Virus record (IMG/VR): IMGVR_UViG_3300048998_000137
Location: 1-25,676 of that record
Source: a virus
Taxonomy: Duplodnaviria > Caudoviricetes
DNA: 25,676 bases
Reading direction: 5' to 3' (one strand)
The notes under the pieces are model-generated. The model made no database searches. It was given only the letters and a program-made list of their open reading frames with translations, and was not told the DNA's origin. The position numbers were made by a program, and so were the translations under genes. Shown one piece after another: positions 2,152-18,985 of the stretch (the stretch's first letter is position 1; each line of letters starts with the position of its first letter).

Positions 2152-2502
2152 GTGGCAACACAGGTGACCACGACGGTGATCGACGATCTCGACGGTTCGG
2201 AGGCGGCGGAGATCGTGCGGTTCGCTTTCGACGGCGTTGACTACACGATCGACCTGTCGGAGAGGAACACGACCAAGATGCGCAAGGCACTCGACCCGTT
2301 CATCACCGCGGCGATGCGCACCAATGCCGGCGGGCGGGCCACTCGCAAGGTCACGCAGGTGCCGATGTCCGCCGACGGGGCGGCCGAGCGCGCGGCGATC
2401 CGCGGCTGGGCGCGTAAGTCGAAACGGTTCCCGACCTTGACGGCCCGGGGCAAGATCCCTGCCGAGGTCGTCGAGGCGTACCGCGCAGCGCACGGGGAGT
2501 AG
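2152..2502 (+). CDS. lsr2: Lsr2 family nucleoid-associated protein / xenogeneic silencer
   Basis: N-terminal oligomerisation motif IDDLDGSEA..VRFAFDGVDYTIDLS..N; C-terminal AIRGWAR...RGKIPAEVVEAY DNA-binding domain; SD GAGAGGA before GTG. Confidence 0.95.
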   Translation: MATQVTTTVIDDLDGSEAAEIVRFAFDGVDYTIDLSERNTTKMRKALDPFITAAMRTNAGGRATRKVTQVPMSADGAAERAAIRGWARKSKRFPTLTARGKIPAEVVEAYRAAHGE

Positions 2503-4816: not shown

Positions 4817-6100
4817 TCAGAAGGACAGCGCGTTGAGACCGACACGGCCGAGGACCGGATCGCCGATCGTGAAGAACGCGTACTTTTCGGCGGCCTGCAA
4901 CTGGAACGTGGTGGTGAATCTCTCGCCGTCGCTGGCGTACTCGATGCCGCGCACGAAACAGTCCTGCTCGATGGGGTCGCCCCCGCCGACCGGACGCCGG
5001 ATCACCGTGACGCGGTCGCCGAGTTCGCGATCGAGCAGTTGCGGCCACGCGATGTCGGCGGCGTCCGGTCGGGGCACCACGAACGACACCGATTGGAACC
5101 GCAGCTCCGGGTCTTTGTTCTGGTAGAGAATCGCCTTGGCGTAGTCGAGGGCCTCGGCGTCGGTACGCAGCAACAGGTCGGTCCGGTTGTACGTCTTGGT
5201 CAGGTACCGCGATACCGAGGTCGCATCGACCGCGGTCTGCGGGATGCCGCCGACGTTGCCGATGGTCACCGTGTTGGCCTGCGCGGTGTCATCCATGTCG
5301 ACCGGGGCGGCCGCGTACGGTGTCTCCCCGTTGGCGATACCGGCGTCGCCGAACGTGGCCTGCGATGTCGTCGAGCGGGTCCGCTCCAGCACCGCGTGCC
5401 GGTTGCGGAACACGACGTCACCGTGCACGTCGACGTACAGCTCACCCATCTCGGAGTCCTGCACAAGCTGCAGCTCGGACAGCACGTTGCCTTCGAGGGT
5501 GGTGGCCTGCAGCCGGGAGTCGCCGGTGTTGAACGTGCGGTCGCCGTTGGGCCAGCCGGCCGAGTCGAGCACCCGCAGGAACCGCGCCGACGACAGTTCG
5601 TTGAGCCCCTGCGACACCGAGGCGACCCGGTCGATCGAGGCGAACACCTTGAATGCGTCGGTCGCGGTGAGCGTCACGGTCGACCACGTGGGGCTGTTGT
5701 TGTCCGGCACCCACCGGTCGGCGAACCCGGTGATCAGGTGGTGAGCGTCGTTCCAGATTCCCGTGATTCGTACCCGGACCATCGGGGTCAACTGGGTCAC
5801 GCCGCCCGCCGTGTACGGACCGACCAGGTTGGTCGGGTCGAACCGCCGGTCGCTGTTGTTGAGCTCGATCGACATGGTGCCGGCCTCGTAGCGCAGGCCG
5901 AGGCCCGCCCGGGACACCCCGCGGCGCAGCGACCAGGACCGGACCCACTGGGTGATGTCGTCCCAGATGTCATCCGAGCCGATCGCCGCGGTGCCGAGCA
6001 TCCCCCGGTCCGGGTCGCCGATCACCCAGTACGGCGGCTCCACCGACGGCCCGGTGAGGCCGATCTCGATGCGCATCTGCGGCAGTGCGGTCAGCGACAT
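4817..6100 (-). CDS. Minor tail protein (tail tip / hub)
   Basis: Immediately downstream of the tape measure gene (TGATG overlap); WDDITQWVRS..LRRG, LNNSDRRFDP, GELYVDVHGDVVFRNR and ELGDRVTV are siphophage tail-tip motifs. Confidence 0.8.
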   Translation of the reverse strand: MSLTALPQMRIEIGLTGPSVEPPYWVIGDPDRGMLGTAAIGSDDIWDDITQWVRSWSLRRGVSRAGLGLRYEAGTMSIELNNSDRRFDPTNLVGPYTAGGVTQLTPMVRVRITGIWNDAHHLITGFADRWVPDNNSPTWSTVTLTATDAFKVFASIDRVASVSQGLNELSSARFLRVLDSAGWPNGDRTFNTGDSRLQATTLEGNVLSELQLVQDSEMGELYVDVHGDVVFRNRHAVLERTRSTTSQATFGDAGIANGETPYAAAPVDMDDTAQANTVTIGNVGGIPQTAVDATSVSRYLTKTYNRTDLLLRTDAEALDYAKAILYQNKDPELRFQSVSFVVPRPDAADIAWPQLLDRELGDRVTVIRRPVGGGDPIEQDCFVRGIEYASDGERFTTTFQLQAAEKYAFFTIGDPVLGRVGLNALSF

Positions 6101-9100
6101 CAGGACCGCCAGGACTTGCCGCTACCGCGCTCGTACGCCTGCACCACGGCGACGACCTGGCGGCCGACCTCCGCCGGGTTAGCGGTGGCCGGTACGGCGA
6201 TCGTGTAGTGATTCACGATCGTGGTCGACCCGCCTCCGCCGCTGCCCCCGCGCTGCACGACGCCCGGGACTACGGTCTCGGGGCCGTTCTCGGCGAATGT
6301 GTACTGCCGGCCGGACGCCCCGACCCCGACGACGGGCTCGTCGATGACCCCGCCCGTGGCGTACCCGCGGGGCGCGAGCCCGGCGTTGGCCTGCTGGACG
6401 TTGAAGATCGAGCCGTACCGCGACTGGATGTAGCGGATACCGGCGACGATGTTCGCGATCGGGTTGGTGATCCCGCCCAGCCCGGGCAGGGCGTAGGCGT
6501 TGAACGTGCTGGGGATCGTCTGCATCAGACCCTGCGAGGGGTGGCCCGCCTGGGCGTTGGAGTCCCAGAGGTTGATGGCGTTGGGGTTGCCGCCGGACTC
6601 GCGCATGATCAGGACCCGTAGCGGGGTGGCCCAGTTGGAGGGCGCCCCCGCGAGTTGCATCCCTCGGGTGATCCAGCCCGCCAGCGCGCCGCCACCGGCG
6701 TAGCTTCCGCCCATGCCCGCGAAGGGATCGACCAGGGCGAGGGCGTCAGCCTTCGACATGATCGACGTGTTGCGGGTGCTGGTGTCCACCGGGTAGACGA
6801 ACCCGCCGCCAGCGTATTTGGGAAGCTGGCCCGCGGTGTTGATGTAGTTCAGGACAGTCGGGCCGAGCTTGCTCGCCGAGGCGGCCTTGACCACGAACTC
6901 ACCGTGCGACAGCATCGCCGGGATCGAATCGGACGTGCCCGTACCCGGGCCCCGAACGTGGCCGCCGGTCGCGAACATGCGCGCCTTCTCCCGGCGGTCG
7001 TCGCTGACTTCGCTAGAGCTGGCGCTTGGGTGTGACAGCTTGTACTGCGCCGTCATCAGATCGAGTAGCTGCGCCTTGACGTCGCCGTAACCCTTGGCCG
7101 AGAGGTGCGCGACCCAGTTGCCGTCGACACCCTTGAGCTTGTCCCAGAGGGTTTGCACCTTCTCCGTGACGTCCTTAAGGGTCGGAGCGGTGATCCGGGT
7201 GGTGACGTCCTTGGGCATCTTGGCGTAGGAGCCGAGCAGCTTGTCGACCCCTGCCTTGTTCACGCCTGCCGCGATCAGTGTCTTGCGCAACTGTCCGAGG
7301 TAATCGTCGTAGACCGCGTTGGCCTTACTGACCGAACCGGTCTCCCGGTACTTGACGGTCGCCGCGTGGGCGGCCGCCTCGGCCGCCTCATTCACGGCCG
7401 CCCGGTTCTTGCGCGCCGCTGCCGAGTTACCCTCGATCGCCCGGCCGTTCTCGGCGAAACTCGTCTTTACCACGGCAACCGCCTCGGACAGGCCGAGGAA
7501 AGCCCCGGTGCCCTCGCGCGCCGCCCGCATGGCAGCCCCGATAGCCGGGCTCATCTTGCCGTCGAATTCTTCGCTAACGTCGCCCGCCGCCCGGCCCACG
7601 TCGTGAAGATCCTTCGCAGCAGCCTTAGCACCCGGCGCCGAGACGTCCAGGGCGTAGGCGCCGTCATACTTGTCAGCGTCCACTTTGGCCTGACGCAGTT
7701 GCTGGGAGACGGCCTCGATCTGTCCCTTGCTCGCACCCGCCGCTTTCATGGCCGTGACCAGAGCGGGGCTCATCTTGCCGTCGAGACTGATCGCCGCACC
7801 GGACGCCGCACCCTGCAACGCGATGGACGCCTCGGCCAGTTTCCCCGTGGCTTCTTTCACGGCGTCACTGTTGGGCTTGTTATGTTTCAACGCGTCGTTG
7901 TAGTCCGACTGCGCCTTACGCATCGCGGCCTGCGCCGAGATCAGTTTGTACGCGGGGTCGGTCTGCCCCTTGAGTTCGGCAGCCAATTCGCTGATCGCGT
8001 CGGCCTCGCCCCGGGCGGCGGCAGCCGCGCGGTCCGCATCGGTCGCATACTTCGCCTGGCCCGCAGCGCCACGTGCCAGCGCACTGGTGAGATCGCCGGT
8101 ACCGCCGGCCGCACTGCCCGCCGCACCACCCAGCGCATCGATCTTGGCGCGGGCCTTATCGGCGTTCGGGCCCACCCACTGCAGGCCGTCGGACAGCTTG
8201 ACTGTCTGGGATCGGGCAACCTCCACTGCGGCCCCGTACTGCGGGAACATCGCCTTGAATTCGTCCATGCTGACGCCGTTGACCGCGAGCACCTTAGCCA
8301 GGCGGGTGAACGCGTCCGCCGCGCCCTGGGTGTTCCCGCTCTGCACCATCGACGTCAGTGCCGCGTCGACCGCGCCGATCTGAGTCTTGGTGTTGGTCAA
8401 CGACGACGACGTATCCCGCAGCGCCGGGGTGACCGCCTCTAGAGCGGTCTGGAAGTTCTTGACCGCCTGCCGGCGCCCGTCGTCCTTGTCGGCGAGGAAC
8501 TGGAACCCGTTGGACAGGTACTCCAGGTTCTTGCCGAGCACGGCGGCGGCGTTGCCCGAGAGGTCAGCGCCCGCCCCGAATTTCTGTAGGCCGAGCGCCA
8601 TCGCCTCGGTGTTCGCCGGGATCTTATTCATCAGCGCATCGGCGGTGATCATGGCGGTCTGCCAGATCACGAACACGCCGGTGGCCACGCCCAGCGCCGT
8701 CGACAGTTTGCCCACGGCGCCGGCGGCGCGCTCGCCGAACGGGCCGATCGAGGAGAGTTCGGTCTTGACGTCGGCGACGGCCTTGCGGTACTTGACCCAC
8801 GCCACTGCGCCGAGCAGGATGACCCCGCCGGCGGCGGATATCAGCGTGAGTCCCTGCTGCGCTGCCCCGGGCAACGCGCTGAATGAGTTGACCGCGTCGT
8901 TAGCGGCCTGCGCCAGCTTGCGCAGGCCGCCGGTCGCGCCCCCGCCGGACTGGATCGCGACGGTTTCGAGGGAGCCCTTGAGCCGCTCAAGGTCGCCGGC
9001 GAGGTTGTTGGTGAGCCGGGCCGCGGTGTCGGCGGCGTAGCCCGCCTCATCGACCTTGCCGCGCCAGTCCTTAACCCCCTCGGCGCCGTCCTTGTAGAGG

Positions 9101-10008
9101 ATGCTCGCCGCGCGGATCGCGTCGTTGCCGAAGATCTGCCCGAATGCCTGGTTGCGCTGCTCCTCGGTGAGGTCCTTCAGCCGGGTCTGCAACATCTGAG
9201 CCGCGCCCGAGACGCCGATGAACTTGCCCTGGGCGTCGTAGAAACTGATACCGAGGCTGGCCATGAGCCCAGCCGTGACCTTGCTGGGGTTCGCGATCGA
9301 GAGCAACATCGTCTTGAATGAGGTACCCGCGTCCGACCCGGTGAGCCCGGCGTGCGCGAACTCGGCCAGCGTCCCTACGGTGTCCTCAATGGACAGACCG
9401 AACTGAGACGCCACGAGACCCGACTGATTCAACGCCATACCCATGTCGTGCACGGAACCCTGGGCCTTGCCCGCACCGGCGGCGAGCAGGTCGGCCACGT
9501 GCGGGACCTGGGCACCCTTGAGCTTGAATTGGGTCAACGCGGACGCGGCGGTCTCGGCGGCCTCGCCGACCGACAGTTCACCGGCGGCGGCCAGATCGAG
9601 GGCACCCCGGAGTCCGCCGTGCAAAATGTCGGCGGTCGACACGCCGGCCTTGGCCAGTTCGGTGACACCCTTCGCCGCCTCGGTGGCGGAGAACTGGGTA
9701 TCCTGCCCAGCCTTGATCGCGGACCGACGCAACTGTTCCAGCTCGCCGGCCGGGGCGTGGGTCGCCGCCGACACCTGCGACATGGCTTTCTCGAAATCCA
9801 TCGCCATCTTGACAGACCCGGCGGCCACGCCGAGCAGACCGATGCCCATGCCGGTCATGACGTGCGAGACCTTGTCCAGCTTGCCGGCGTCGGCGGCCTT
9901 ACCCAGGTTGCTGGTGAGTTCCTTGGTGCCCTCGCCAGCCTTCTTCATGCCGGCCATGAACCCCGACACGTTGGCCTCAAGCCGGACGCCGACGGTACGT
10001 AGCGCCAT
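6100..10008 (-). CDS. Tape measure protein with C-terminal lytic transglycosylase (SLT-like) domain
   Basis: 1302 aa, Ala-rich; TP901-type core (DFEKAMSQV...TQFSATEAAKG..ELAKAG; GSDAGTSFK); SLT motifs MRESGGNPNAINLWDSN, GLMQTIPSTF and ANIVAGIRYI. Confidence 0.95.
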   Translation of the reverse strand: MALRTVGVRLEANVSGFMAGMKKAGEGTKELTSNLGKAADAGKLDKVSHVMTGMGIGLLGVAAGSVKMAMDFEKAMSQVSAATHAPAGELEQLRRSAIKAGQDTQFSATEAAKGVTELAKAGVSTADILHGGLRGALDLAAAGELSVGEAAETAASALTQFKLKGAQVPHVADLLAAGAGKAQGSVHDMGMALNQSGLVASQFGLSIEDTVGTLAEFAHAGLTGSDAGTSFKTMLLSIANPSKVTAGLMASLGISFYDAQGKFIGVSGAAQMLQTRLKDLTEEQRNQAFGQIFGNDAIRAASILYKDGAEGVKDWRGKVDEAGYAADTAARLTNNLAGDLERLKGSLETVAIQSGGGATGGLRKLAQAANDAVNSFSALPGAAQQGLTLISAAGGVILLGAVAWVKYRKAVADVKTELSSIGPFGERAAGAVGKLSTALGVATGVFVIWQTAMITADALMNKIPANTEAMALGLQKFGAGADLSGNAAAVLGKNLEYLSNGFQFLADKDDGRRQAVKNFQTALEAVTPALRDTSSSLTNTKTQIGAVDAALTSMVQSGNTQGAADAFTRLAKVLAVNGVSMDEFKAMFPQYGAAVEVARSQTVKLSDGLQWVGPNADKARAKIDALGGAAGSAAGGTGDLTSALARGAAGQAKYATDADRAAAAARGEADAISELAAELKGQTDPAYKLISAQAAMRKAQSDYNDALKHNKPNSDAVKEATGKLAEASIALQGAASGAAISLDGKMSPALVTAMKAAGASKGQIEAVSQQLRQAKVDADKYDGAYALDVSAPGAKAAAKDLHDVGRAAGDVSEEFDGKMSPAIGAAMRAAREGTGAFLGLSEAVAVVKTSFAENGRAIEGNSAAARKNRAAVNEAAEAAAHAATVKYRETGSVSKANAVYDDYLGQLRKTLIAAGVNKAGVDKLLGSYAKMPKDVTTRITAPTLKDVTEKVQTLWDKLKGVDGNWVAHLSAKGYGDVKAQLLDLMTAQYKLSHPSASSSEVSDDRREKARMFATGGHVRGPGTGTSDSIPAMLSHGEFVVKAASASKLGPTVLNYINTAGQLPKYAGGGFVYPVDTSTRNTSIMSKADALALVDPFAGMGGSYAGGGALAGWITRGMQLAGAPSNWATPLRVLIMRESGGNPNAINLWDSNAQAGHPSQGLMQTIPSTFNAYALPGLGGITNPIANIVAGIRYIQSRYGSIFNVQQANAGLAPRGYATGGVIDEPVVGVGASGRQYTFAENGPETVVPGVVQRGGSGGGGSTTIVNHYTIAVPATANPAEVGRQVVAVVQAYERGSGKSWRS

Positions 10009-10015
10009 GGCCTGA

Positions 10016-10441
10016 TCACCGCCGTTTCTGGATAGTCCATAGCCGGGCTCGGGCGTTCGGGTTGGGGCGGTCGTCCGGATCGGCGGCGCGCTGCGCCTCG
10101 ATCAGGGCCAAGGTCGCTCGGCACGCCGTGTGCGAGACGGCGAAAGCCGGGCCGCTCTCCTCGTGCGAGAGGGTGTGTTCGGCGAGGAACCCGCACCCGT
10201 CCGGGCACAGCCAGGACCGGTAGAGCGCCAGGGCGAGCAGCTCGCCGCGGTCCTGCTCGGTCCACTCGCGCTCGTGGGTGGTGACCGCGCGAGTGAGGCG
10301 GCCGGCGTCGTCGTACTCGTACTCAGTGACCGAGGTGACCTCACGGCCGTCGAGGCGCGACGGCGCGACGCCGAGGCGTTCCGCGACCTCTACTCGCCGT
10401 CGGTAGCTCTCCTCGACCGAGAGGCGGCGTGCGAGAAAGGG
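10016..10441 (-). CDS. Tail assembly chaperone, -1 frameshift extension (gpGT-like C-terminal part)
   Basis: Open -1 frame overlapping the 3' end of the chaperone ORF, entered at CCCTTTC; no convincing independent start; ends just before the tape measure ATG. Confidence 0.8.
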   Translation of the reverse strand, partial: PFLARRLSVEESYRRRVEVAERLGVAPSRLDGREVTSVTEYEYDDAGRLTRAVTTHEREWTEQDRGELLALALYRSWLCPDGCGFLAEHTLSHEESGPAFAVSHTACRATLALIEAQRAADPDDRPNPNARARLWTIQKRR

Positions 10442-10944
10442 ACGTCGACAGTCCCCCGGTTCACGGCCCACGCGGCGTCCGCGAGGTCGCCGATCTGTCG
10501 GTCGGTGAGTTTGGTGTCGAGTAGCTCGGTCCAGCCGGCCGAGTCAAGAACCGGGTCGATGACGCAGGCGCGCACGACGTCGTCGTAGAACGTCTCCTGG
10601 TTGAACCCGACGCGCACGTCTCCGGCGTCAGGGTCTCCGGTGACCGGGTCGACGCGGGGTCCGTGCTCGGCGACGAACTTGCGCCACGCCGGTTTGGGCA
10701 GGGCCCGCACGACGAACGTGTACGAGTGGTCGCGCATGGCGGCCTCAAGCGCGAGGATCTGCTCGGCGAGTTCGCCGGTGCCGTTGCCTTCCAGGGAGTC
10801 GACCGGGCGGCGCTGGGCGTCTTCGAGCTTGCGCTCTAGTTCCTCATGCGCCGCGGTGAGATCGCCTCGTAGGCAGATCGGCACGGTGCGCTCAGGCAGG
10901 CGTGCGTCGGCCATCATGGTGAGGAAATCCTTGGGTTCTGCCAT
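10390..10944 (-). CDS. Tail assembly chaperone (gpG-like)
   Basis: Between the tail tube and tape measure genes; ATG at 10944 with SD AGGAG; ends ...VDVPFS... across the slippery site. Confidence 0.85.
   Translation of the reverse strand: MAEPKDFLTMMADARLPERTVPICLRGDLTAAHEELERKLEDAQRRPVDSLEGNGTGELAEQILALEAAMRDHSYTFVVRALPKPAWRKFVAEHGPRVDPVTGDPDAGDVRVGFNQETFYDDVVRACVIDPVLDSAGWTELLDTKLTDRQIGDLADAAWAVNRGTVDVPFSHAASRSRRATDGE
10435..10441 (-). other. Programmed -1 ribosomal frameshift slippery site CCCTTTC
   Basis: Minus strand reads GTC CCT TTC (V-P-F) in frame 0 and CCC TTT CTC (P-F-L) in the -1 frame; an X XXY YYZ heptamer in the correct phase. Confidence 0.8.
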
Positions 10945-10971
10945 CGTGGTTCTCCTGGCGGTTGGGGGCGC

Positions 10972-11006
10972 CCGGGTCTCGGAACCGCCAGGAATCCGAG
11001 ACCCGG
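10972..11006 (-). promoter_or_regulatory. RNA hairpin whose loop is complementary to the chaperone RBS
   Basis: 12-bp stem CCGGGTCTCGGA/TCCGAGACCCGG; 10983-10993 (AACCGCCAGGA on +) is the exact reverse complement of 10953-10963 (TCCTGGCGGTT on +). Confidence 0.65.
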
Positions 11007-11010
11007 ACAC

Positions 11011-11042
11011 GAAAAAGCCTCGCGACCCTGGCGGTCCGAGGC
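11011..11042 (-). terminator. Intrinsic terminator after the tail tube gene
   Basis: Minus strand GCCTCGGACC-GCCAG-GGTCGCGAGGC followed by TTTTTC. Confidence 0.75.
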
Positions 11043-11058
11043 GGTGGGGTGGGGGTGG

Positions 11059-11544
11059 TTACGCGATGGTGGAACGCAGCGCCGGCGCGCTGGTGATCTT
11101 GATCGGGATCTCGTAGCGCTCGACGGTGTTGGGCGCCGGGTCCATCCGAGCGACCTCGCCGCACAGTGCCGGGTACACCTCGACGGACTGCCCGGTCGCG
11201 TACGCGGTGGCGGCCGCCACCGACCGACGGATCACGACGAACCCGGCCGCATCGCGGACCAAGGTCGTGAAGATCGTGTCAGTGCCGGACTGCCGCTTGA
11301 CCCGCAACGCCGTGTTGGAGAACGACGTGCGGCCGTTGACCATCGTGTTGAACGTCGAGTCGAGCGAGGACGTGTCGACGTCGGCGGTGGCCGGCTGGAA
11401 CCCGTTCAGGCCGTCGGCGGTCAGCGTCGAGTGCAGGCTCAGACCGGCGTTGAGTTCCGTGGTCGTCGGGGCCTGGATGTTGGCGATGGTCGTGACCCAG
11501 TAGACCCGGGTCCGGCCATCGCTGGTGATGTCGTTGGCACCCAT
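11059..11544 (-). CDS. Major tail (tube) protein
   Basis: DGRTRVYWVTTIANIQAPTTTELNAG, GFVVIRR and VEVYP are actinophage tail-tube motifs; strong SD AAAGGAG; upstream of the chaperone. Confidence 0.88.
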   Translation of the reverse strand: MGANDITSDGRTRVYWVTTIANIQAPTTTELNAGLSLHSTLTADGLNGFQPATADVDTSSLDSTFNTMVNGRTSFSNTALRVKRQSGTDTIFTTLVRDAAGFVVIRRSVAAATAYATGQSVEVYPALCGEVARMDPAPNTVERYEIPIKITSAPALRSTIA

Positions 11545-13479: not shown

Positions 13480-15186
13480 TCACGGGCGGTAGACGATCCC
13501 GGTGGAGGGCCGGGAGGCGACCCCGGTGGAGGGCCGGGAGGCGACCCCGGTGGAGGGCCGGTGCACGGTGGGGTCCGCGACGCTGACAGCGCCAACCGCG
13601 GTCAGCGCGCCGGTGCCGGCCAGGGTGGCCACGGCCGCCCGGGTCACTACGGCGGTCGCGATCAGCGCGCCAGTGCCGGGCAAGACAGCGGTGCCCGGGG
13701 GGCTGACGATGGCGGCCGTCGCCGTGAGAGCGCCGATGCCGGCCAGGGTGGCGGGCGCCGACCGGGTCGCCGCAGCCGTCGCGGCGAGAGCGCCGGTGCC
13801 GACGAGGTCGCCGGTGGCCACGGTTCCGGTGACCGTGGCCACCACGGTCAGGGCGCCGGTGCCGGCCAGGGTGGCGGTTGCCGGGTGGGTGGCCGCGCCG
13901 GTCGTGGTGAGCTGACCCGTTCCCGCGAGAGAGGTGGTGGCATCGCGGGTGACGGTCGCCGTGGCCGTGAGCGCGCCGGCGCCGTTGACCGTGGCCGTCG
14001 TGGTGGCCGTGTTGTTCCCGGCCGCGGTCAGCGCGCCCGTGCCCGCGAGCGAGGTGGTGGTGTCGCGGGTGACGGCGGCCGTGGCCGTGAGCGCGCCGGA
14101 ACCGGTGAGCGTGGCCGCCGAAGAGGTGGACGCCAGTGCCGCAGCGGTCAGCGCGCCGGTGCCCACGAGCGAGGTGGTGGCGGACTGCGTGAAGGAGCCC
14201 GTGCCGATGATCGCGCCGGCGCCCACGAGTGGGGCGGTGGCGTCGCGGGTGGCGTCGGCCGTAGCCGTGAGGGCGCCGGAACCGGTGAGCGTGGCCGCAG
14301 CGTCGCGAGTGGCGGCGTCAGTACCCGCCAGAGCGCCAGAGCCCGCGAGGGAGGTGGTGGCGTCACGGGTGACGGTCGCCGTGGCCGTGAGCGCGCCAGT
14401 GCCCGTGAGTGCGGCAGTGGCATCGCGGGTGACGGCGGCCGTGGCCGTGAGGGCGCCAGTGCCAGCCAGCGTGGCCGCCGGGGGCGCGGCCGGAGCCGAC
14501 CTGGTGACCGAGATGACCGGGTAGCCGTAACCCAGGTTCGGGACGCTCGCGGTCGCCACCGAGGTAGCGGCGATCGCGTTCTGGTTGGCTTTGAAGCCGG
14601 TCACGTCGGGTACAGCTTGCGAGATGTCCGACTGATCGAGGACCCAGAGCGACCGGGGCTGAGCCAACGATGTCCAGGCGCTCAGGTCGTAGGGCATTTG
14701 CTCTAGTTTGGTGTCACCGAGCCCGGCGTTGTATGTGGCCGCAGCGGCGATGTCGCCCAGGAACGGCCACGATCCCGTGACCCGGTCGCCGAGCCGGACA
14801 CCGGTCAAGACGGACGTCGAACCGGCCGTAGTGGTCGATGCGCTGGTGTGTTTCCAGACCCCGGTGCCGTAGGTGTACTGATGAATCCGGGGAACCACTA
14901 TCCCGGACACTTTGGTAACCGCGAGGAGAATCCACCCGTCCGACGAGTTCATGATGAACGGGGTCGCCGGGAAATACCCGTTGCCTTCGATGCTGCACAG
15001 CACTCCCGACGACGTTCCGAGGCTGGTGATCCCCGATTGTCCGGCCGCGCTGGTAATAGAGAAAAGGTCACAAGCTGTAGTGACGTTAGAAAAGCGACAC
15101 ACCACTACCCACGTGAATGTGTCGGTAGTTGGTACGGCGCCGACTGCAAACGAGATGCTGTCGGAGCCCGAGAAAGTTCTCGCCAC
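13480..15186 (-). CDS. Putative fibre protein: N-terminal LamG/ConA-like domain, 15 x 20-aa repeats, short C-terminal repeat
   Basis: N-terminal ~230 aa with TFTWVVV, GWILLAVT and VRLG...FLGDIAAAATYN pattern; central xLxGxGALTAT repeats; terminal RPSTGVAS repeats. Confidence 0.8.
   Translation of the reverse strand: MARTFSGSDSISFAVGAVPTTDTFTWVVVCRFSNVTTACDLFSITSAAGQSGITSLGTSSGVLCSIEGNGYFPATPFIMNSSDGWILLAVTKVSGIVVPRIHQYTYGTGVWKHTSASTTTAGSTSVLTGVRLGDRVTGSWPFLGDIAAAATYNAGLGDTKLEQMPYDLSAWTSLAQPRSLWVLDQSDISQAVPDVTGFKANQNAIAATSVATASVPNLGYGYPVISVTRSAPAAPPAATLAGTGALTATAAVTRDATAALTGTGALTATATVTRDATTSLAGSGALAGTDAATRDAAATLTGSGALTATADATRDATAPLVGAGAIIGTGSFTQSATTSLVGTGALTAAALASTSSAATLTGSGALTATAAVTRDTTTSLAGTGALTAAGNNTATTTATVNGAGALTATATVTRDATTSLAGTGQLTTTGAATHPATATLAGTGALTVVATVTGTVATGDLVGTGALAATAAATRSAPATLAGIGALTATAAIVSPPGTAVLPGTGALIATAVVTRAAVATLAGTGALTAVGAVSVADPTVHRPSTGVASRPSTGVASRPSTGIVYRP
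13498..13561. repeat. 24-bp perfect tandem repeat, about 2.7 copies (encodes RPSTGVAS)
   Basis: CCCGGTGGAGGGCCGGGAGGCGAC at 13498 and 13522, partial copy at 13546. Confidence 0.95.
13576..14472. repeat. Degenerate 60-bp coding tandem repeat, 15 units
   Basis: Protein unit approximately TLAGTGALTATAAVTRDATA; the 60-nt period is visible as column alignment in the 60-nt lines; two units are 21 aa. Confidence 0.92.
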
Positions 15187-18940: not shown

Positions 18941-18985
18941 ACGCAGAAGCCCCGCCGGAGTTCAATCCGTGCGGGGCTTCTGCGT
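18941..18985 (-). terminator. Strong hairpin / probable terminator after the capsid genes
   Basis: 15-bp arms ACGCAGAAGCCCCGC / GCGGGGCTTCTGCGT, 9 bp after the stop at 18995. Confidence 0.75.

What the first reader, a model, noticed from the sequence alone, without database searches (positions are those of the whole stretch)
10945..11058. Three-way complementary RNA element between the tail tube and chaperone genes: candidate pseudoknot / kissing-loop switch
Seen, in mRNA order: (1) a terminator hairpin whose apex contains ACCGCCAGG (11035-11027); (2) a 12-bp hairpin whose loop region reads UCCUGGCGGUU (10993-10983); (3) the chaperone RBS AACCGCCAGGAG (10963-10952). Loop 2 is perfectly complementary to the RBS over 11 nt and to the terminator apex over 9 nt. 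Three copies of one 9-mer in 114 bp are unlikely by chance. Inference: alternative pairings (an SD-occluding H-type pseudoknot versus a loop-loop contact with the upstream hairpin) tune chaperone and tape measure output relative to tail tube protein.
Basis: partly seen in the sequence, partly recalled or inferred. Interest (0 to 1): 0.72.

Follow-up and report, generated by a model that had tools for sequence, protein, structure and literature searches.

The report
Loop-and-ladder pseudoknot on chaperone ribosome site
Right after the tail-tube gene, this phage and many other phages of actinobacteria (including the laboratory phages L5, D29 and TM4) carry an RNA hairpin whose loop matches one to three short sites leading up to the next gene's ribosome-binding site, and it likely folds back onto them to limit how much tail-assembly chaperone is made.

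Summary
One of its two pairings is conserved and the other is not.

Conserved: a hairpin whose loop is complementary to the chaperone ribosome-binding region. In 91 of 100 related loci, with the hairpin picked blind to complementarity, the loop matches its own downstream RNA over 7 nt or more. Unrelated loop/locus pairs do so in 61 of 6602 cases. Loop sequences vary widely and the targets follow them. The geometry fits an H-type pseudoknot, G·U bias marks it as RNA on the mRNA strand, and 82 of 100 loci carry two or more tandem targets. It also occurs in cultured Arthrobacter, Brevibacterium, Microbacterium, Corynebacterium and Mycobacterium phages.

Not conserved: the terminator-apex copy. 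Only the window has it, 1 of 56 terminator-preceded loci. Only 5 of its 9 bases are unpaired, and most of it matches the terminator family's usual apex.

Best reading: a translational attenuator of the chaperone cistron; function is untested. There was no Rfam match and nothing in the papers searched. This scan noted a similar element before in a Streptomyces prophage (e1-9781045); its copies before the tail gene were not seen here.

The parts
11059..11544 (-). Major tail (tail tube) protein gene, 161 aa
   Evidence: PHROG 2491 E 6.5e-21; Pfam PF25595 Phage_TTP_16, 158 bits against a cutoff of 27
11012..11042 (-). Intrinsic-terminator-like hairpin (10 bp, bulged G, 5-nt loop GCCAG) plus U5
   Evidence: Fold -19.1 kcal/mol; a separate U-tract precedes the main hairpin in 56 of 100 loci; termination is inferred
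11027..11035 (-). Third 9-mer copy across the terminator apex; not conserved, 4 of 9 nt paired
10968..11010 (-). Main hairpin (pseudoknot stem 1), 16 bp including G·U pairs
   Evidence: equivalent 10-16 bp stems in 100 of 112 loci
10984..10994 (-). 11-nt loop UUCCUGGCGGU, 5' strand of predicted stem 2
10953..10963 (-). Single downstream target AACCGCCAGGA, 3' strand of predicted stem 2, covering AGGA of the Shine-Dalgarno AGGAG (10956-10952)
   Evidence: Duplex -14.2 (8 bp) to -19.4 (10 bp) kcal/mol without pseudoknot penalty
10390..10944 (-). Tail assembly chaperone G, 184 aa
   Evidence: tblastn matches (29-33% identity) to annotated tail assembly chaperones in 36 Arthrobacter phage records; PHROG 19248
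10435..10441 (-). Slippery heptamer C CCT TTC; the -1 frame stays open to 10016 (predicted G-T fusion)
   Evidence: Sequence and ORF list; P-F-S invariant in 65 homologues; the frameshift itself is inferred
6100..10008 (-). Tape measure protein gene
   Evidence: PHROG 1533 E 1.6e-92

Best explanation
The stretch holds a terminator-like hairpin followed by a conserved RNA hairpin whose loop is complementary to the ribosome-binding region of the next gene, and the loop likely pairs there as an H-type pseudoknot that lowers translation of the chaperone cistron relative to the tail tube. Shown: the hairpin, the complementarity, its covariation, the strand bias, and its position at the first RBS after the tube gene. 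Inferred: that the pseudoknot forms, that it hinders 30S loading, and that tandem targets (82 of 100 loci) let the loop move between iso-energetic positions on and off the RBS, so that number and position of copies tune output. In this window there is one target, on the SD itself, so opening would rely on fraying or ribosome/S1-driven unfolding (inferred).
For:: 100 of 112 loci have a strong hairpin chosen without regard to complementarity. Loop versus own downstream is 7 nt or more in 91 of 100, versus equal-length upstream 3 of 100, versus unrelated loops 61 of 6602. There are 41 different 6-nt loop cores, and the loop-plus-terminator classes need 49 changes on a quick chaperone tree of 98 rows. 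Pairing runs to the 3' end of the loop (loop 2 = 0) in 73 of 99 and loop 1 is 0-3 nt in 88 of 99, the coaxial H-type arrangement. A target overlaps the SD in 56 of 95, or the last target ends within 2 nt of it in 27 of 95. G·T 98 versus A·C 18 in stems under a symmetric rule. When genes are inserted before the chaperone, the element stays at the RBS of the first inserted ORF. In Arthrobacter phages polarity is reversed (purine loop, pyrimidine targets), yet a copy still abuts the SD or sits between SD and AUG, so the targets are not simply SD repeats. Loci lacking it often have overlapping or very close stop and start codons.
Against: No expression or probing data. In 12 of 95 loci the last target ends 3 nt or more upstream of the SD; Auxilium's targets stop well short of it; in L5 and D29 only a 5-nt match touches the AUG. 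Extra upstream targets would weaken pure repression, and neither first nor last target is consistently stronger (35 first, 27 equal, 20 last of 82). The linker to the first target is only 2-5 nt in 52 of 99, so the base of the stem must fray. Many targets are purine-rich, which inflates the SD-overlap count. No pseudoknot energy was computed. Loci are related and modules recombine, so counts are not independent events.
Confidence: 0.55

Rival explanations
1. The pseudoknot is a protein-binding translational operator: a tail protein (chaperone G/GT or free tube protein) would bind it and repress or release translation, as T4 gp32 and E. coli S15 do on their mRNAs.
For: A strong SD kept together with an occluding structure suggests regulation rather than a fixed low level (inference). 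Shape is conserved: 12-15 bp stem in 87 of 100, loop 2 = 0 in 73 of 99. Precedent: PMC3014915 (passages).
Against: No invariant loop or target bases across families. The element flanks unrelated tube and chaperone families (PHROG 2491 versus 476) and controls unrelated inserted ORFs. No RNA-binding activity of these proteins was found or tested.
Confidence: 0.15
2. The structure acts on the RNA rather than the ribosome: a nuclease barrier, or a pause/weak terminator, that sets the ratio of tube mRNA to downstream mRNA.
For: In 44 of 100 loci the hairpin is the only one and starts a median 8.5 nt after the tube stop codon, where other phages have a plain terminator (LeBron, Rey, Sephiroth, Corndog, HK97; PMC4351075 passages). 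Some targets do not reach the SD.
Against: 56 of 100 loci already have a separate U-tract terminator just upstream. The 8 nt after the stem hold on average only 2.2-2.4 U. Targets track the start codon rather than a U-tract.
Confidence: 0.12
3. The loop also acts in trans: tube mRNAs that end just after the hairpin expose a free loop and pair with spare tandem targets on read-through mRNAs, so that chaperone translation responds to tube mRNA level.
For: 82 of 100 loci have more targets than loops. Single targets are rarer where no terminator precedes the hairpin (3 of 44 versus 14 of 55 with a target; Fisher p 0.017). A 3-4 nt linker is short for crossing a 14-16 bp stem in cis.
Against: That p value ignores relatedness, and the class labels contain errors (L058 and L041 were scored as lacking a terminator although they have one). 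41 of 56 terminator-preceded loci also have multiple targets although their terminated RNAs would lack the loop. A cis target should outcompete a trans one.
Confidence: 0.1
4. One reading: the loop alternates between the RBS and the terminator apex.
For: The 9-nt match is real and rare under shuffling (19 of 20000). Two other loci with the same loop have CCGCCA in the apex (L005, L022), while those with other loops have CCCCCA or unrelated apices. The window has no downstream second target that could serve as the alternative.
Against: 1 of 56 terminator-class loci reaches 9 nt. The window's loop matches the other 55 upstream spacers over at most 6 nt. Single-target loci have no more upstream complementarity than multi-target ones (p 0.83). 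Among 15 hairpin-bearing matches of this loop in viral contigs none exceeds 6 nt upstream. Four of nine bases are in the terminator stem (cost 8.8 kcal/mol; free 5-nt loop duplex -8.8). A 6-nt linker is too short for coaxial kissing of 10- and 16-bp stems (geometric inference).
Confidence: 0.06
5. The repeats are DNA-level sites (protein-binding inverted repeats) or duplicated SD sequences with no pairing role.
For: Many targets contain GGGAG or AGGAG. Short tandem duplications arise easily.
Against: G·T 98 versus A·C 18 on the mRNA strand. There is no shared sequence across families. Pyrimidine-rich targets occur in Arthrobacter phages, L5 and D29. One copy always lies, inverted, in the hairpin loop.
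Confidence: 0.03

Closest known systems
E. coli rpsO (S15) translational operator pseudoknot
   Same: Pseudoknot in a translation initiation region that the 30S must unfold; S1 melts it and S15 hinders melting (PMC3858243: abstract and section headings seen)
   Different: One fixed pairing and a known protein ligand in a host gene. Here the sequence is free, there are up to three alternative targets and no ligand is known.
T4/T2/RB69 gene 32 pseudoknot operator
   Same: Phage mRNA H-type pseudoknot with coaxial stems controlling initiation (PMC3014915 passages; that 2010 review says it may be the only viral pseudoknot used in translational autoregulation)
   Different: It lies 67 nt upstream of the start and nucleates gp32 binding over an unstructured A+U-rich RBS. 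Here stem 2 itself lies on or beside the SD.
Intercistronic terminators after major tail genes (Corndog, HK97, LeBron, Rey, Sephiroth)
   Same: Same position; GC-rich hairpin
   Different: Their loops have no downstream complement. Here the element is either added after a terminator or replaces it.
Start Associated Sequences (SAS/ESAS) of Cluster K mycobacteriophages
   Same: Short repeats at translation starts in actinobacteriophages, proposed to act in initiation (PMC3203893 passages)
   Different: SAS is one fixed 13-bp sequence at many genes. This element occurs at one site per genome examined, varies freely and is defined by pairing. The passages seen do not mention the TM4 tail spacer.
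-1 frameshift signals of lambda-type G/GT chaperones
   Same: Same gene; also sets chaperone amounts (PMC3296357 passages)
   Different: Acts about 500 nt downstream on elongating ribosomes. It is a separate feature.

Membership tests
Any Rfam 15 family | Covariance-model score at the gathering threshold | tested here: not met
   0 matches in the window; 16 related loci gave only two sub-threshold miRNA hits at E about 0.35
H-type pseudoknot | Loop bases complementary to a strand 3' of the stem, with covariation | tested here: met
   91 of 100 against 61 of 6602; 41 loop cores
H-type pseudoknot | Short loop 2 and short loop 1 allowing coaxial stacking | tested here: met
   Loop 2 = 0 in 73 of 99; loop 1 of 0-3 nt in 88 of 99
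H-type pseudoknot | Loop 3 long enough to cross stem 1 | tested here: inconclusive
   2-5 nt to the first target in 52 of 99; needs fraying of basal pairs (6.4 kcal/mol for four pairs in the window) or use of a distal target
H-type pseudoknot | Both helices formed at once in solution | not testable with these tools
   Needs probing or a structure
SD-sequestering translational control element | Paired strand overlaps or abuts the SD | tested here: met
   Window: covers AGGA. Overlap in 56 of 95 and abutting in 27 of 95; 12 of 95 do neither
SD-sequestering translational control element | Pairing lowers initiation | not testable with these tools
   Needs a reporter or toeprint
Autogenous protein-binding operator (gp32/S15 type) | Bound by a product of the operon | not testable with these tools
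   No binding data; no invariant bases seen
Kissing-loop switch | Conserved, covarying complementarity between two hairpin loops | tested here: not met
   1 of 56; no covariation with loop class; at most 6 nt in 15 same-loop hairpins
SAS/ESAS | Fixed 13-bp consensus repeated at many gene starts | tested here: not met
   The window's 9-mer has 4 exact copies, one at a gene start; the sequence differs from the consensus in PMC3203893
Intrinsic terminator (upstream hairpin) | GC-rich stem followed directly by a U-tract | tested here: met
   10-bp stem plus U5; RNA 3' ends not tested

The most novel reading that the evidence does not exclude
A sequence-free, one-loop/many-target RNA rheostat used across unrelated actinobacteriophage tail modules. 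The loop steps along a ladder of two or three equivalent sites that ends on the ribosome-binding site, or spare sites catch loops from terminated tube mRNAs in trans. The number and position of rungs would then set chaperone and tape-measure output. It would be an undescribed control sitting in L5, D29 and TM4.
Probability: 0.25. Interest if true: 0.85.

Novelty: new variant of a known kind. Interest (0 to 1): 0.66.

Why it matters
How a single late transcript yields many tube subunits but fewer chaperones and one tape measure per tail is an old question, and in lambda the chaperone ratio affects phage yield (PMC3296357, passages). This element gives a concrete, mutable candidate for the tube-to-chaperone step in actinobacteriophages. 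It is present in cultured phages with harmless laboratory hosts (M. smegmatis, Arthrobacter globiformis), so loop and compensatory mutations can be tested at once. It is invisible to sequence searches because only the pairing is conserved. One loop with tandem equivalent targets is also an unusual design for tuning translation in GC-rich RNA.

Tried and rejected
Terminator-apex kissing as a conserved state: rejected.

Loop-complementary copies before the tube gene, a lead from earlier finding e1-9781045: not found in 73 loci of this tube family; no 26-nt bin from -400 to +480 exceeded 3 of about 70. Other tube families were not tested for this.

Rfam: nothing. Nucleotide BLAST of two element types against cultured phages gave only chance hits at E 2-8. 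Single-protein locus searches found 2 and 1 loci; the alignment query worked. A MAFFT alignment of 35 elements put loops and targets out of register and was not used for pair counts; no covariance model or R-scape-type test was run. No RNA holder was listed. The Bxb1 stretch fetched ended before the spacer and was not analysed. The careful tree did not finish; the quick tree was used.

Literature: five searches aimed at this element and two broader ones listed no paper describing it. The supplement of PMC5737381 could not be read. For PMC10690425 (over ten thousand candidate viral RNAs), three tables and a document held no tail terms, but its alignment archives and PDFs could not be read, so an anonymous model of this element may exist there. 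Subscription papers on L5, D29 and TM4 are not in the library.

Full report
Setting. The window is a 25,676-base virus record with a siphophage structural operon on the minus strand. The 114-nt spacer lies between a tail tube gene (11544-11059; PHROG 2491, Pfam PF25595) and a tail assembly chaperone (10944-10390; tblastn matches to annotated chaperones in 36 Arthrobacter phage records). The chaperone has a C CCT TTC heptamer and an open -1 frame, followed by the tape measure gene. The closest named chaperone homologues are from Micromonospora, so an actinomycete host is likely (inference).

Observation. The three copies are present as described. In mRNA order: a 10-bp terminator-like hairpin with loop GCCAG and U5; a 16-bp hairpin (11010-10968) with loop UUCCUGGCGGU; a 4-nt linker; and AACCGCCAGGA, which covers AGGA of the SD. 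The region folds with z = -4.18. In the apex copy only five bases are unpaired. Among 39 strong hairpins on both strands of the window, this one has the longest loop complement within 45 nt downstream (10 nt); its own mirror image has 9 and the rest 7 or fewer.

Relatives. An alignment of 65 of the 120 listed homologues fetched 160 loci. With three earlier loci and the window, 117 of 164 remained after dropping duplicates, partial matches and loci with under 150 nt upstream. In 112 the tube stop codon was located. In 100 of these a strong hairpin (stem of 10 bp or more, loop of 6 nt or more) was chosen without looking at complementarity. Its loop matches the RNA between stem and start codon over 6 nt or more in 97 of 100 and 7 nt or more in 91 of 100. 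The equal-length upstream RNA reaches 7 nt in 3 of 100, and unrelated loops tested against other loci do so in 61 of 6602. There are 41 distinct 6-nt loop cores. Loop-plus-terminator classes need 49 changes on a quick tree of 98 chaperones; sister pairs such as L058/L071 and L050/L062 carry different loops, each with its own matching target. Module exchange may contribute to these changes. Of the 12 loci without a call, three show the element in looser runs (L084; L101 and L154), six have spacers of -1 to 32 nt, and three lack it.

Anatomy. Stems are 12-15 bp in 87 of 100. Pairing reaches the 3' end of the loop in 73 of 99 and leaves 0-3 nt at its 5' side in 88 of 99, as expected for coaxial H-type pseudoknots (established knowledge). 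Under a rule allowing G·T and A·C equally, stems hold 98 G·T and 18 A·C oppositions. The regions were centred on hairpins first found with G·U allowed, so some bias remains, but this favours RNA on the mRNA strand. Two or more targets occur in 82 of 100 loci, with a period of 8-10 nt in 50 of 90 intervals. A target overlaps the SD in 56 of 95 loci, the last one abuts it in 27, and it ends 3 nt or more upstream in 12. A separate terminator precedes the hairpin in 56 loci; in 44 the hairpin starts a median 8.5 nt after the stop codon (at least two loci are mislabelled). Where genes are inserted before the chaperone, the element usually stays just after the tube gene and sits at the RBS of the first inserted ORF, which often overlaps the chaperone start by 4 nt.

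Breadth. In 401 genomes sampled from the class of G001, 17 prophage loci matched the chaperone profile. Eight have the element (one repeats L001); of the nine without, seven show by eye overlapping or very close stop and start codons. Overlap is the arrangement that supports termination-reinitiation coupling (PMC10666635, abstract), so the element and direct coupling look like alternative solutions (inference). A pattern scan for the window's loop returned 119 loci; 15 of 110 distinct matches had a stem of 9 bp or more, 13 of them in what read as tail modules, including a different tube family (PHROG 476) with different chaperones.

Cultured phages (hand-picked, not a sample). Of 17 examined, 11 have two or three targets of 6 nt or more: Arthrobacter Eileen, Seahorse, Isolde, Persistence and Hestia; Brevibacterium AGM1; Microbacterium Footloose; Corynebacterium Colleen and PSonyx; Mycobacterium TM4 and L5. 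Two have one (Auxilium, Kumao) and four have none (LeBron, Rey, Sephiroth, phiC31). D29 has it; Corndog, lambda and HK97 do not. In TM4 the third target covers the SD. In Seahorse and Hestia the third lies between SD and AUG. In L5 and D29 only a 5-nt third match reaches the AUG, and in Auxilium none does. Several of these have purine-rich loops and pyrimidine-rich targets, so the targets are not merely repeated SD sequences.

The third copy. Of 56 terminator-preceded loci only the window has a 9-nt upstream match; one has 7 and nine have 6. The window's loop matches the other 55 upstream spacers over at most 6 nt, and single-target loci are not enriched for upstream matches. Twelve loci share this terminator type, and most have an apex of the form ACC-NCCAN-GG with unrelated downstream loops, so only about two positions had to change to give the match. 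Against this dismissal: base shuffles reach 9 nt in only 19 of 20000 trials, two other loci with the same loop have CCGCCA in the apex, and the window lacks a second downstream target. A lineage-specific contact is therefore not excluded, but freeing all nine bases costs 8.8 kcal/mol and the linker is short. I give it about 0.06.

Mechanism. Shown: structure, covariation, strand, position. Inferred: read-through transcripts fold the hairpin, the loop pairs with a target, and the helix on or beside the SD hinders 30S loading. For the window an 8-10 bp helix is -14.2 to -19.4 kcal/mol before pseudoknot penalties, against -7.4 for the SD paired with a recalled anti-SD motif; after a typical penalty of several kcal/mol (recalled) the two are of similar size. 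The nested alternative that breaks the stem is 8.6 kcal/mol worse than the hairpin, so a true pseudoknot is more likely than refolding. Tandem targets of similar strength (35 first stronger, 27 equal, 20 last stronger) would let the loop leave the SD at little cost. Rivals are a protein-bound operator, an RNA-stability or termination element, and pairing in trans.

Comparison and novelty. It works like SD-sequestering pseudoknot operators such as rpsO (PMC3858243, abstract and headings) and resembles the T4 gene 32 pseudoknot in fold (PMC3014915, passages), but no ligand is known and the sequence is free. It is not an Rfam family and not SAS (PMC3203893, passages). Searches listed no description. 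Of PMC5737381, PMC10690425, PMC4351075, PMC5712189 and PMC3296357 I saw matched passages only; unread supplements of the first two may hold a model of it. This scan's earlier report e1-9781045 describes what appears to be the same design in a Streptomyces prophage. Its extra claim of copies before the tail gene was tested on 73 loci of this tube family and not found. Interest 0.66.

Noticed in passing
window 6105-6113: Fourth exact copy of the 9-mer, in the loop's sense, within the last codons (Ser-Trp-Arg) of the tape measure gene; probably codon-driven.
   Followed up: no
window 10435-10441 (-): C CCT TTC slippery heptamer; the same D/S-V-P-F-S stretch with CCCTTTT is seen in Auxilium, Eileen and AGM1.
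   Followed up: partly
L003, L005, L011, L022, L061, L065, L107, L153 (terminator before the element): A recurring terminator type with a bulged G and a conserved CCA-containing apex; why the apex is conserved is unexplained.
   Followed up: partly
L005, L012, L016, L018, L026, L037, L052, L070, L080, L083 and others: Small unrelated genes are often inserted between the element and the chaperone, taking over its RBS and overlapping or nearly abutting the chaperone start; an insertion hot spot.
   Followed up: partly
L318:1872-1990 (L5) and L321:2080-2198 (D29): A sequence matching the stoperator consensus given in PMC5712189 lies just upstream of the hairpin and forms its own small stem.
   Followed up: no
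L257 and L260, near position 200-300: Hairpin with the same loop and one downstream target outside any evident tail module.
   Followed up: partly
window 2152-2502 (+): 116-aa ORF that looks like an Lsr2-type nucleoid protein (recalled resemblance, not tested).
   Followed up: no
window 18941-18985, 2509-2548, 1682-1720: Other strong hairpins, likely terminators; none has a loop complement downstream.
   Followed up: partly
window 13480-15186 (-): Long Ala/Thr/Gly-rich repeat protein among the head genes, ending in three near-copies of an 8-residue repeat.
   Followed up: no
L167:1338-1437 (Bifidobacterium phage Bbif-1) and L292:1195-1305 (gut phage): By eye the same design: imperfect targets in Bbif-1, three tandem targets ending at the SD in the gut phage.
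   Followed up: partly
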